Positions 63,381 to 64,000 of a stretch of DNA of 64,000 bases are shown piece by piece. Positions within the stretch are counted from its first letter, which is position 1. The number at the start of each line of letters is the position of its first letter. The stretch lies in NCBI RefSeq assembly GCF_044324785.1, contig NZ_CP172127.1; one strand, written 5' to 3'. Source of the DNA: Escherichia coli. GTDB taxonomy: Bacteria; Pseudomonadota; Gammaproteobacteria; Enterobacterales; Enterobacteriaceae. A program made the position numbers and the translations under genes. Under the pieces are notes generated by a model. That model searched no databases, was not told the DNA's origin, and saw nothing but the letters and a program-made list of their open reading frames with translations.

Positions 63381-63710
63381 GATGAAGTTTTCTGTTAATC
63401 ATACTGGTTGATATGCATAACATTTCATAAAAAATACTGTTAATTCATATAATTGATTTTTTGACTGGTTTTATCCTCGTGTGGTGGAAAGCAGTATTAC
63501 TGCCACTGTAGTCAGCATAAATCTATCACACAGAACCACCGAAAATGAAGCATTGCTCAGGGGGAAGCTGCCACTCGTATGAGTTCTCTGAACCATGATA
63601 ACCAGTATTTTTCGTTTTGGGTGATTTGTTTATCGTTACAGCTACATACAGTTCATGTACCATTAAAAAATAATAAAGGTTAATTAGTATTATTTATAGA
63701 AGTATGTTTA

Positions 63711-63756
63711 TGTAATTCTACCGTGTAAATGAACCCTGTAATTCTACCTTGTAAAT
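63711..63756. repeat. Tandem direct repeat of about 20 bp (tgtaattctacc[g/t]tgtaaat) in an AT-rich intergenic region
   Basis: Copies at 63711-63730 and 63737-63756, with further tgtaa-type half-repeats to about 63900. Confidence 0.4.
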
Positions 63757-64000
63757 ACACCTTGTAACCAAGTCCTGTAGAAGTCTGTCTCATAGAAGTA
63801 TCTGTGCAGTGATATTCTCTGTAGTAGTACTTGTAACTCTGTTCTTAACTCTCTCTTCAGTAATGTAGTCCCGCAACACCTGAATATAAATCTGTAATGT
63901 TCACACACTGACTGTAACGTGCTTTGTTAAGTAATGTCTGCTATTTTTTTTTCTGTTATTTTTCCTGTTGTTTTCTGTATTTTGTTGTATGGTGTAATAA

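What the first reader, a model, noticed from the sequence alone, without database searches (positions are those of the whole stretch)
63690..63960. Tandem direct repeats in an AT-rich region at the island end
Two 20-bp copies of tgtaattctacc[g/t]tgtaaat (63711-63730, 63737-63756) are followed by further tgtaa-containing half-sites. Closely spaced direct repeats next to alpA and the expected integrase end are a plausible set of arm-type recombinase binding sites or regulator iterons.
Basis: inference. Interest (0 to 1): 0.35.

Follow-up and report, generated by a model that had tools for sequence, protein, structure and literature searches.

The report
13-bp site array in island control region
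The repeats are real and look like a row of six protein-docking sites in the central control region of an E. coli genomic island (not at its integrase end), of a known general kind but with unusual 13-bp spacing and a still unidentified binding protein.

Summary

The array is far beyond chance. It is strictly one-stranded (TGTAA 8:0). It varies between E. coli strains from about 4 to 11 units, nearly always in 13-bp steps. Its TGTAA core is protected from substitution (P about 6e-4).

The window end is not the island end: the integrase and tRNA lie about 11 kb further on, and the unit motif occurs nowhere else in the island. Integrase arm-type sites are therefore very unlikely.

The array sits in a ~1-kb AT-rich divergent control region. 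On one side is an operon encoding a ribbon-helix-helix (YagM-like) protein plus AlpA. On the other is an operon encoding an Hha-like protein plus an HUH Rep-like ("inovirus Gp2"/YagK-YfjJ) protein. The array starts 17 bp downstream of an invariant 16-bp box conserved across three divergent lineages of this module.

Best reading: a cooperative iteron/operator array for an island-encoded DNA-binding protein. The HUH Rep-like protein is the best candidate, but only weakly so. The binder and function are inferred, not shown.

The parts
63711..63788 (+). Array of six head-to-tail 13-bp units: TGTAATTCTACCG, TGTAAATGAACCC, TGTAATTCTACCT, TGTAAATACACCT, TGTAACCAAGTCC, TGTAGAAGTCTGT. Consensus TGTAA-W-T-S-W-ACC-Y. 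The last two units are degenerate in their right halves.
   Evidence: Logo from 43 units. Copy number about 4-11 in other alleles. Core constraint P about 6e-4.
63678..63693 (+). Invariant box GGTTAATTAGTATTAT, 17 bp upstream of the array. It contains a -10-like TATTAT, which is TATAAT in distant lineages. It is either a core promoter or an HUH nick sequence; which one is unresolved.
   Evidence: Unique in the window. Identical in all E. coli alleles and in the CP4-57-like paralogue. Present as GGTTTTTAGTATAAT in the Citrobacter, Pectobacterium and other lineages. Always on the strand of, and upstream of, the Gp2-like gene.
63660..63710 (.). Most AT-rich segment of the intergenic region, abutting the left edge of the array and containing the box.
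   Evidence: GC about 0.25 per 100-bp window. Nearly invariant across alleles.
63832..63836 (+). Isolated TGTAA (in CTTGTAAC), conserved in all 11 alleles, same orientation as the array.
63894..63898 (+). Isolated TGTAA (in TCTGTAATG), same orientation. Changed to TGTCA in some alleles.
63914..63918 (+). Isolated TGTAA (in ACTGTAAC), conserved in all alleles, same orientation.
63947..63983 (+). T-rich 11-12-bp tandem repeat tract (TTTTTCTGTTA-like). Replaced by unrelated sequence in one allele group, so probably not essential.
63381..63677 (.). Highly conserved non-coding stretch between the YagM-like start codon and the box. Its small ORFs are broken by 4-7-nt indels in other alleles.
62589..63380 (-). 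YagM-family (PF27701/UCP007319) gene, 263 aa. N-terminal ribbon-helix-helix DNA-binding domain plus an alpha/beta C-terminal domain. Transcribed away from the array.
61999..62205 (-). alpA, encoding a 68-aa excisionase/RDF-type winged-helix protein, downstream of the YagM-like gene.
   Evidence: Pfam Phage_AlpA at 3e-9. PHROG 'excisionase and transcriptional regulator'. PDB hits to an AlpA-family protein (8c3t) and TorI (1z4h). Lambda Xis wing motif.
61303..61920 (-). 205-aa protein of unknown function, the last gene of the leftward YagM-like/AlpA operon. It has a 52%-identical counterpart in the distant modules.

Best explanation
The array is a row of head-to-tail, 13-bp-phased binding sites (iterons/operators) for a sequence-specific DNA-binding protein encoded by the island itself.

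It lies in the island's central divergent control region. It begins 17 bp downstream of an invariant box (GGTTAATTAGTATTAT) that heads the rightward hha-like / HUH Rep-like ('Gp2'/YagK-YfjJ) operon. It lies upstream of the leftward RHH(YagM-like)-AlpA operon.

Proposed mechanism (inferred): protomers recognise the TGTAA..ACC unit and polymerise cooperatively along the six units. Because the phasing is 13 bp they would spiral around the DNA rather than sit on one face. The filament would occlude or gate transcription leaving the box in both directions. If the box is the Rep's nick site, the filament would also position the Rep next to it.

The best candidate binder is the HUH Rep-like protein. 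Geminivirus, circovirus, parvovirus and pMV158-type Reps likewise bind lineage-specific tandem repeats beside a conserved nick or promoter element and autoregulate through them.

Shown: the array, its constraint, its context, and the folds of the neighbouring proteins. Inferred: that a protein binds, which protein, and the consequence.
For: (1) Real, oriented, phased array.

(2) Copy number differs between alleles almost always by whole 13-bp units, and at least 4 units are kept in all 13+ alleles.

(3) The TGTAA core took 5 of 38 substitutions on a minimum-spanning tree of 26 distinct units, against 14.6 expected (P = 6e-4).

(4) The array is placed 17 bp after a box that is invariant in three divergent lineages and always upstream of, and co-oriented with, the Gp2-like gene.

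(5) In the CP4-57-like paralogue the same box is followed after 10 bp by a different 12-bp x2 repeat. That paralogue's Gp2-like protein is 62% identical and it has no YagM-like gene. The repeat is marginal, with 16 of 500 shuffles as good.

(7) Between the array-bearing and array-less lineages, the Gp2-like protein is the most diverged module protein at 38%. AlpA is 79%, YagM-like 57% and the 205-aa protein 52%. The DNA-reading elements of AlpA are unchanged, and the YagM-like beta-strand keeps its R/T/N residues in one array-less lineage (RITFNVT) and differs only N to S in the others.
Against: - There is no binding, transcription-start or nicking data.
- The distant lineages show no repeat beyond chance after the box. 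Cross-lineage co-variation therefore rests on two lineages, one of them marginal.
- There is no significant hairpin around the box in any lineage.
- Promoter scores do not exceed those of shuffled AT-rich DNA.
- Several alleles have lost the Gp2-like gene to IS insertion yet keep the array, although these losses look recent.
- Copy-number polymorphism and micro-slippage inside the array are also what a neutral minisatellite would show.
Confidence: 0.3

Rival explanations
1. Autoregulatory operator array for the adjacent ribbon-helix-helix YagM-like protein. RHH dimers would bind successive TGTAA units, as omega, ParR/ParG, CopG and TraM bind tandem sub-sites. They would repress or activate the leftward YagM-like/AlpA operon and the divergent hha/Gp2-like operon.
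Against: The array is 330 bp from the YagM-like start codon. The sequence that co-occurs with YagM-like in all lineages lies next to the start codon, not at the array. Homologues with the same beta-strand face residues (RITFNVT in L020) have no TGTAA in their control region. The CP4-57-like lineage has the box plus a repeat but no YagM-like gene.
Confidence: 0.17
2. Filament-type binding sites for AlpA, an excisionase/RDF-type winged helix acting here as a transcriptional regulator. This would resemble P2 Cox and 186 Apl, which bind 6-7 direct repeats between early promoters.
For: AlpA is an RDF-type protein and is encoded in every lineage of the module. RDFs bind head-to-tail direct repeats cooperatively, and some also act at promoter switch regions (PMC7498355). 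The paralogue's repeat resembles lambda Xis site X1 at 15/17 positions (P about 0.013).
Against: Spacing is 13 bp, not the roughly 10-11 bp that defines RDF arrays. There are no similar sites elsewhere in the island or near the integrase/att end. AlpA's recognition helix and wing are identical in lineages that lack the array. The window's own array is not significantly similar to the lambda Xis sites (P about 0.33).
Confidence: 0.15
3. A functionless minisatellite (VNTR) generated by replication slippage in AT-rich, H-NS-silenced island DNA. Its promoter-like hexamers would be incidental.
For: Copy number is polymorphic between strains. Small slippage events occur inside the array: CTACCT x3 in the 536 allele and an 8-bp duplication in L011. 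The array is absent from related modules in other genera. It is absent from the representative genomes of 100,044 species, except for one mis-binned E. coli contig. Island backbones with hha paralogues are H-NS/Hha-repressed (PMC6480617).
Against: Substitutions avoid the TGTAA core (P = 6e-4). Conserved, co-oriented solitary TGTAA sites extend 130 bp beyond the array. No allele has fewer than 4 units. The array keeps a fixed position next to an invariant box.
Confidence: 0.15
4. Iterons of a theta-type replication origin of the excised island. The array would work with the adjacent AT-rich unwinding segment and a host DnaA box.
For: The AT-richest 50 bp abut the array. A T-rich 11-12-bp repeat tract lies nearby. 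There is one perfect DnaA box (TTATCCACA) about 270 bp to the right, at window-equivalent 64061-64069. It is the only perfect one in 17.6 kb and is kept in 9 of 11 alleles.
Against: No winged-helix RepA/RepE/pi-type initiator is encoded in the module. The 13-bp units and phasing are unlike 17-22-bp iterons. The DnaA box is absent from the other lineages, and one-mismatch boxes are not enriched. The T-rich tract is replaced in one allele group.
Confidence: 0.07
5. Arm-type binding sites of the island's tyrosine integrase.
For: Closely spaced direct repeats are the usual form of arm-type sites. A P4-type integrase belongs to the island.
Against: The integrase and tRNA lie about 11 kb away, and the array is in the interior of the island. 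The motif is not found at or near either island end. Six to eleven contiguous co-oriented copies is unlike known arm-site layouts.
Confidence: 0.03

Closest known systems
Rep-binding iterons next to the origin/promoter of HUH Rep proteins. Examples: geminivirus iterons between the TATA box and the Rep transcription start, circovirus hexamer repeats, the AAV Rep-binding element, parvovirus NS1 ACCA repeats, and the pMV158 RepB 11-bp direct repeats. These examples are from established knowledge and were not re-checked here.
   Same: Short head-to-tail direct repeats a few bp from a conserved sequence element. They lie upstream of, and co-oriented with, a gene for an HUH-motif protein with an origin-binding-type fold. 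The repeat sequence differs between related lineages while the neighbouring element stays constant.
   Different: No nick site or hairpin has been demonstrated. The units are 13 bp and number up to 11. The element is a chromosomal island with no evidence of replication. A 150-bp hha-like gene and about 700 bp lie between the array and the Rep-like gene.
Operator arrays of dual-function recombination directionality factors: P2 Cox boxes, 186 Apl operators (seven between pR and pL, five at attP), and lambda Xis X1-X1.5-X2.
   Same: Multiple co-oriented direct repeats with a short conserved core. They lie between oppositely oriented transcription units of a mobile element that encodes an excisionase-type winged-helix protein (AlpA).
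   Different: Spacing is 13 bp instead of 10-11 bp (PMC7498355). There is no second set of sites at att. AlpA's DNA-reading parts do not co-vary with the presence of the array.
Tandem sub-site operators and centromeres of ribbon-helix-helix proteins: omega heptads, ParR/ParG sites, CopG, and TraM-sbmA.
   Same: An RHH protein gene is adjacent and divergent. There are many contiguous short direct repeats. Non-helical phasing would make the bound proteins spiral around the DNA, as with omega and ParR.
   Different: The array is 330 bp from the RHH gene. RHH homologues elsewhere lack it. There is no partition ATPase or relaxase context.
Plasmid iteron origins (pSC101, P1, F, R6K, RK2).
   Same: A direct-repeat array flanked by an AT-rich segment, with a consensus DnaA box nearby.
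   Different: The unit length and phasing differ (13 bp against 17-22 bp on a ~22-bp register). There is no winged-helix Rep initiator gene.

Membership tests
Integrase arm-type sites (tyrosine recombinase att arms) | Located within a few hundred bp of the crossover core, at the element's end next to the target tRNA | tested here: not met
   The integrase (record 903,783-905,045) and tRNA-Ser are about 11 kb to the right of the array. The other island side is more than 15 kb to the left.
Integrase arm-type sites (tyrosine recombinase att arms) | Copies of the motif on both arms (attL and attR) | tested here: not met
   TGTAANTNNACC occurs only in the array. There are 0 other matches in the window, L001 or L033.
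Integrase arm-type sites (tyrosine recombinase att arms) | Bound by the integrase N-terminal arm-binding domain | not testable with these tools
   Needs EMSA or footprinting.
RDF (Xis/Cox/Apl-type) operator array | Head-to-tail direct repeats | tested here: met
   Strand bias 8:0.
RDF (Xis/Cox/Apl-type) operator array | Spacing of about one helical turn (10-11 bp) | tested here: not met
   The period is 13 bp in all alleles. Criterion from PMC7498355.
RDF (Xis/Cox/Apl-type) operator array | Element encodes an excisionase-type winged-helix protein | tested here: met
   AlpA.
RDF (Xis/Cox/Apl-type) operator array | Similar sites at the attachment site | tested here: not met
RDF (Xis/Cox/Apl-type) operator array | Cooperative binding and DNA bending | not testable with these tools
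   Needs biochemistry.
RHH-protein tandem operator | Adjacent gene encodes a ribbon-helix-helix protein | tested here: met
RHH-protein tandem operator | Sites overlap the promoter of the RHH gene | tested here: inconclusive
   The array is 330 bp upstream of the start codon. Promoter-like hexamers within the units do not exceed the shuffled background. No TSS data.
RHH-protein tandem operator | Site co-occurs with the protein across relatives | tested here: not met
   Citrobacter, Pectobacterium and other YagM-like loci lack TGTAA arrays. The paralogue with box plus repeat lacks YagM-like.
HUH-Rep origin/iteron region | Protein with HUH and catalytic Tyr motifs and the HUH nuclease fold | tested here: met
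HUH-Rep origin/iteron region | Tandem repeats adjacent to a conserved nick sequence | tested here: inconclusive
   A conserved box lies 10-17 bp from repeats in two lineages. Whether the box is a nick site is unknown.
HUH-Rep origin/iteron region | Nick sequence presented in a hairpin loop (many but not all HUH systems) | tested here: not met
   Folding z-scores ran from -0.8 to +1.2 in five lineages.
HUH-Rep origin/iteron region | Repeat sequence co-varies with Rep divergence | tested here: inconclusive
   The units differ between the E. coli-type and the CP4-57-like lineage (Rep 62% identical). The distant lineages (Rep 38% identical) have no significant repeat.
Theta-type iteron origin | 17-22-bp iterons in ~22-bp register and a winged-helix Rep initiator gene | tested here: not met
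   The units are 13 bp. No such gene is in the module.
Theta-type iteron origin | Adjacent AT-rich segment and DnaA box | tested here: met
   True only for the E. coli-type alleles, and the box is about 270 bp away.
Neutral minisatellite (VNTR) | Copy-number polymorphism between strains | tested here: met
   About 4-11 units.
Neutral minisatellite (VNTR) | Substitutions spread evenly over the unit | tested here: not met
   5 of 38 changes fell in the 5-bp core against 14.6 expected, P = 6e-4. Caveat: the core was defined after inspecting the sequence.

The most novel reading that the evidence does not exclude
The invariant box plus the adjacent lineage-specific repeats may be the origin (nick site plus iterons) of an unrecognised HUH-Rep-driven rolling-circle replication or mobilisation system. 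It would be shared by the CP4-57, CP4-6 and CP4-44-type tRNA islands and pathogenicity islands of E. coli and relatives. These 'cryptic prophages' would then be, or recently were, autonomously replicating or mobilisable elements, with the RHH protein, AlpA and the Hha-like protein as the switch.
Probability: 0.1. Interest if true: 0.8.

Novelty: new variant of a known kind. Interest (0 to 1): 0.38.

Why it matters
About 14% of complete E. coli genomes (758 of 5,426) carry this control region inside a tRNA-associated island. They include CFT073, Nissle 1917 and 536.

How such islands are switched on, excised, replicated or mobilised is poorly understood. I found no description of this array, or of the invariant box beside it, in the searchable literature.

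If the array is the docking platform of an island regulator or Rep-like protein, it gives a concrete, testable handle on the control of a very common class of pathogenicity-island backbones. The handle comprises one 80-bp element, three candidate proteins, and natural alleles with 4 to 11 units.

If the array is merely a constrained-looking minisatellite, it is of little interest beyond strain typing.

Tried and rejected
- **Rfam**, E-value mode, across the control region: no RNA family.
- **Small ORFs overlapping the array** (37 and 54 aa, minus strand) and in the 330-bp stretch. Rejected as coding because copy number changes by 13 bp and other alleles carry 4-7-nt indels.
- **Genome-collection scan** with two consecutive unit motifs: 12 hits. 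Eleven are in unrelated phyla, which is chance level. One contig binned as 'Collinsella' is in fact the E. coli module. This gave no extra taxonomic depth.
- **Plasmid and phage collections**: two E. coli records in the plasmid collection, probably chromosomal fragments mis-labelled as plasmids (the 1.0-Mb one almost certainly), and no phage hit.
- **Distant YagM-like loci and intermediate relatives**: no array.
- **Hairpin around the box**: not significant.
- **Sigma-70 consensus and PWM scans**: array-embedded and box-associated promoters do not exceed shuffled AT-rich DNA, so they are not used as evidence.
- **P. aeruginosa AlpA/ABE as a model**: rejected. It is a different, Q-like ~150-aa protein with a single 6-bp site.
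- **Similarity of the window's array to the lambda Xis sites**: not significant (P about 0.33). Only the paralogue's repeat is similar.
- **DnaA box as a cross-lineage feature**: not found outside the E. coli-type alleles.
- **GT-N6-AC pseudo-dyad and a weak GntR (YvoA) hit of YagM-like** (E = 0.38): not supported by the structure model, so dropped.
- **Literature searches** for yagM/yagK/yfjJ, island hha paralogues and the AlpA-binding element: nothing on this intergenic array.

Full report
**1. The observation**

They are the 26-bp super-period of a finer structure: six head-to-tail 13-bp units starting at 63711, 63724, 63737, 63750, 63763 and 63776.

- Three TGTAA spaced by 8 nt occur three times here and never in 100 shuffles.
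- The 12-bp unit motif TGTAANTNNACC occurs four times in the 64-kb window, all in the array, against 0.33 expected.
- TGTAA is 8:0 strand-biased across 63694-63930. The intergenic region holds nine copies against 1.2 +/- 1.1 expected.

**2. Where it lies**

The window is E. coli chromosome: glc, sslE, gsp and kps genes, followed by a tRNA-type island backbone with cbtA/cbeA, a radC-like gene, antirestriction, DUF932 and GTPase genes.

A 99.9%-identical complete genome (NZ_CP135671.1) shows what lies beyond the window end. The next genes are an Hha/YmoA-like gene, an 'inovirus Gp2'/YagK-YfjJ-like gene, two DUF7828 zinc-ribbon genes, a second YagK-like gene and IS debris. Only then, about 11 kb from the array, come the integrase and a tRNA-Ser, with a PFGI-1/SPI-7-type ICE on the far side.

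The array is therefore in the interior of the island. It sits in a ~1,037-bp AT-rich region between two diverging gene sets:

- Leftward: YagM-like (62589-63380), alpA (61999-62205) and a 205-aa ORF (61303-61920).
- Rightward: the hha-like gene, the Gp2-like gene and the zinc-ribbon genes.

The same module is present in 758 of 5,426 complete E. coli genomes, including CFT073, Nissle 1917 and 536.

**3. Comparative anatomy of the array**

I aligned eleven alleles of the intergenic region, spanning 100% to about 75% identity.

- The array changes length almost always in whole 13-bp units: about 4 units in L009, L010 and L012, 6 in the window, 8 in CFT073, 9 in L004, L006 and L008, and 11 in L005. 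The exceptions are one 12-bp unit in three alleles, plus a CTACCT triplication in strain 536 and an 8-bp duplication in L011.
- The unit logo is T1 G2 T3 A4 A5 W T7 S W A10 C11 C12 Y, with G2 and T3 invariant in 43 units.
- On a minimum-spanning tree of the 26 distinct units, only 5 of 38 substitutions fall in the 5-bp TGTAA core, against 14.6 expected (P = 6e-4). The caveat is that the core was defined after seeing the sequence.
- Two solitary co-oriented TGTAA sites further right (63832 and 63914) are conserved in all alleles.
- This pattern fits constrained sites better than a neutral minisatellite. Copy-number polymorphism alone would fit both.

**4. The neighbours**

*YagM-like.* This 263-aa protein belongs to a small family (PF27701/UCP007319; 39 clusters at 50% identity).
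- An AlphaFold model (pLDDT 79.6) has the helix pattern of a ribbon-helix-helix monomer followed by an alpha/beta domain.
- Foldseek's only high-probability local match is the RHH protein CdbA.

*AlpA.* This is an excisionase/RDF-type winged helix. It matches Pfam Phage_AlpA, PHROG 'excisionase and transcriptional regulator', PDB hits to an AlpA-family protein and to the KplE1 RDF TorI, and the lambda Xis wing motif.

*Gp2-like.* This protein conserves LRxDF, WVxE..HIHF and SYLAK, which are the HUH and catalytic-tyrosine motifs, across 19 diverse members.
- Its model (pLDDT 84, pTM 0.81) has the ferredoxin-like fold.

**5. A conserved box**

The 16-mer GGTTAATTAGTATTAT (63678-63693) lies 17 bp left of the array and is unique in the window.

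- It is identical in every E. coli allele and in a paralogous CP4-57-like module (alpA, a DUF3987 gene, a ~970-bp gap, then a Gp2-like gene 62% identical; no YagM-like gene).
- It is present as GGTTTTTAGTATAAT in the Citrobacter, Pectobacterium and other modules, where the Gp2-like gene, AlpA and a 191-aa gene diverge directly from YagM-like across about 380 bp.
- It is always upstream of, and co-oriented with, the Gp2-like gene.
- In the paralogue it is followed after 10 bp by a different tandem repeat: GTTATGTTATCT / GTTATGTTGTCT, 12-bp period. That repeat is marginal, with 16 of 500 shuffles as good.
- The distant lineages have no repeat beyond chance after the box.
- The box contains a -10-like hexamer (TATAAT or TATTAT) and could be a core, possibly bidirectional, promoter. 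It could equally be an HUH nick sequence.
- Neither a conserved hairpin nor promoter scoring discriminates between these readings.

**6. Who binds?**

The reading heads of two candidates do not track the array.
- AlpA's recognition helix and wing are identical in lineages with and without the array.
- A YagM-like homologue with the same beta-strand face residues has no TGTAA in its control region.

Module identities between the E. coli-type and the Citrobacter-type are AlpA 79%, YagM-like 57%, the 205-aa protein 52% and Gp2-like 38%. The lineage-specific repeats therefore track the HUH protein best.

That protein class characteristically binds tandem repeats next to a conserved nick or promoter element and autoregulates through them (established knowledge of geminivirus, circovirus, parvovirus and pMV158 Reps). 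This is weak co-variation evidence from three lineages. I rank the HUH protein first at about 0.3, then the RHH protein and AlpA.

**7. Other readings tested**

*RDF-type arrays.* These are defined by direct repeats one helical turn apart, with matching sites at att (PMC7498355). Here the period is 13 bp and there are no att copies. I checked the lambda Xis sites in the lambda record. The paralogue's repeat resembles X1 at 15/17 positions (P about 0.013), but the window's array does not (P about 0.33).

*Origin-like anatomy.* Three features suggest one: an AT-rich segment abutting the array, a T-rich repeat tract, and one perfect DnaA box at window-equivalent 64061-64069. Four points count against it. 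The DnaA box is confined to the E. coli-type alleles. The T-rich tract is replaced in one allele group. No winged-helix initiator is encoded. The 13-bp units are unlike plasmid iterons.

*Integrase arm-type sites.* These are excluded by position and by the absence of the motif elsewhere.

**8. Known or new**

I found no description of this array or of the box. The literature reachable here covers island-borne hha paralogues, their linkage to the flu-yeeR backbone and H-NS/Hha repression (PMC6480617).

Tandem operator and iteron arrays are a well-known kind. This one differs in four ways: its 13-bp phasing, its variable unit number, its position beside an invariant box, and its setting in the core of a very common E. 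coli island backbone that encodes an HUH Rep-like protein. I class it as a new variant of a known kind.

**9. Verdict**

- That a protein binds, which protein, and the function are all inferred and need the simple biochemical and TSS-mapping experiments listed.
- Interest is moderate (0.38). The bolder reading, an unrecognised HUH-Rep origin shared by CP4-type islands, is not excluded but is unlikely on present evidence (about 0.1).

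Noticed in passing
window 63678-63693: The 16-bp box GGTTAATTAGTATTAT is invariant across three divergent lineages of the AlpA/Gp2-like module. 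It is the most conserved non-coding element of the family. It may be a promoter core or an HUH nick site.
   Followed up: partly
L001 9983-10168 (window-equivalent about 64382-64567, beyond the window end): In the window-type allele the island's hha-like gene has a stop at codon 4 (ATG GAA TTT TAA). It is annotated as a 49-aa product restarting at GTG. Strain 536-type alleles carry a full 70-aa hha (L007 2513-2725).
   Followed up: partly
L001 about 10370-10395, and equivalent positions in L014, L016, L017, L020 and L037: A hairpin whose 3' arm contains the Shine-Dalgarno sequence of the Gp2-like gene. It has 8 predicted pairs, 2 with compensatory changes across lineages. This suggests translational control of the HUH protein.
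   Followed up: partly
window 63381-63677: A 297-bp non-coding stretch is conserved as strongly as coding DNA across alleles. Next to the YagM-like start codon, GTTATGCA-N12-13-ATGATTAACA is shared with all distant lineages. It may be the YagM-like promoter/operator or a structured leader.
   Followed up: no
L001 9662-9670 (window-equivalent 64061-64069): A perfect consensus DnaA box (TTATCCACA, minus strand). It is the only perfect one in 17.6 kb. It is kept in 9 of 11 E. coli alleles but is absent from the other lineages' control regions.
   Followed up: yes
window 63947-63983: A T-rich 11-12-bp tandem repeat tract. Alleles L006-L012 carry unrelated sequence at this position, marking a recombination or replacement boundary inside the intergenic region.
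   Followed up: partly
L028 (JAIJJM010000108.1, labelled Collinsella sp. MAG): This contig carries the E. coli box plus the TGTAA array, with an L008-like allele. It is almost certainly an E. coli island contig mis-binned into an actinobacterial MAG.
   Followed up: partly
L037 3276-3312: The CP4-57-like paralogue's repeat plus its downstream sequence (TTATGTTGTCTCTTTTT) matches lambda Xis site X1 plus flank (TTATGTAGTCTGTTTTT) at 15/17 positions (P about 0.013). This hints that AlpA-type proteins may read Xis-like sites there.
   Followed up: partly
L033 3784-5321 and onward (NZ_CP135671.1 903,783-949,000): The island's integrase sits next to a tRNA-Ser. Directly on the other side of that tRNA is a PFGI-1/SPI-7-type integrative conjugative element with ParA, DnaB-PI, TraD and a type IV pilus. 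The tRNA therefore separates this island from an adjacent ICE.
   Followed up: no
L001 11371-12176 and 12648-13214: Two tandem DUF7828 plus zinc-ribbon genes and a second, highly diverged YagK/YfjJ-like gene follow the Gp2-like gene. Their functions are unknown, and they are possible further DNA-binding candidates.
   Followed up: no
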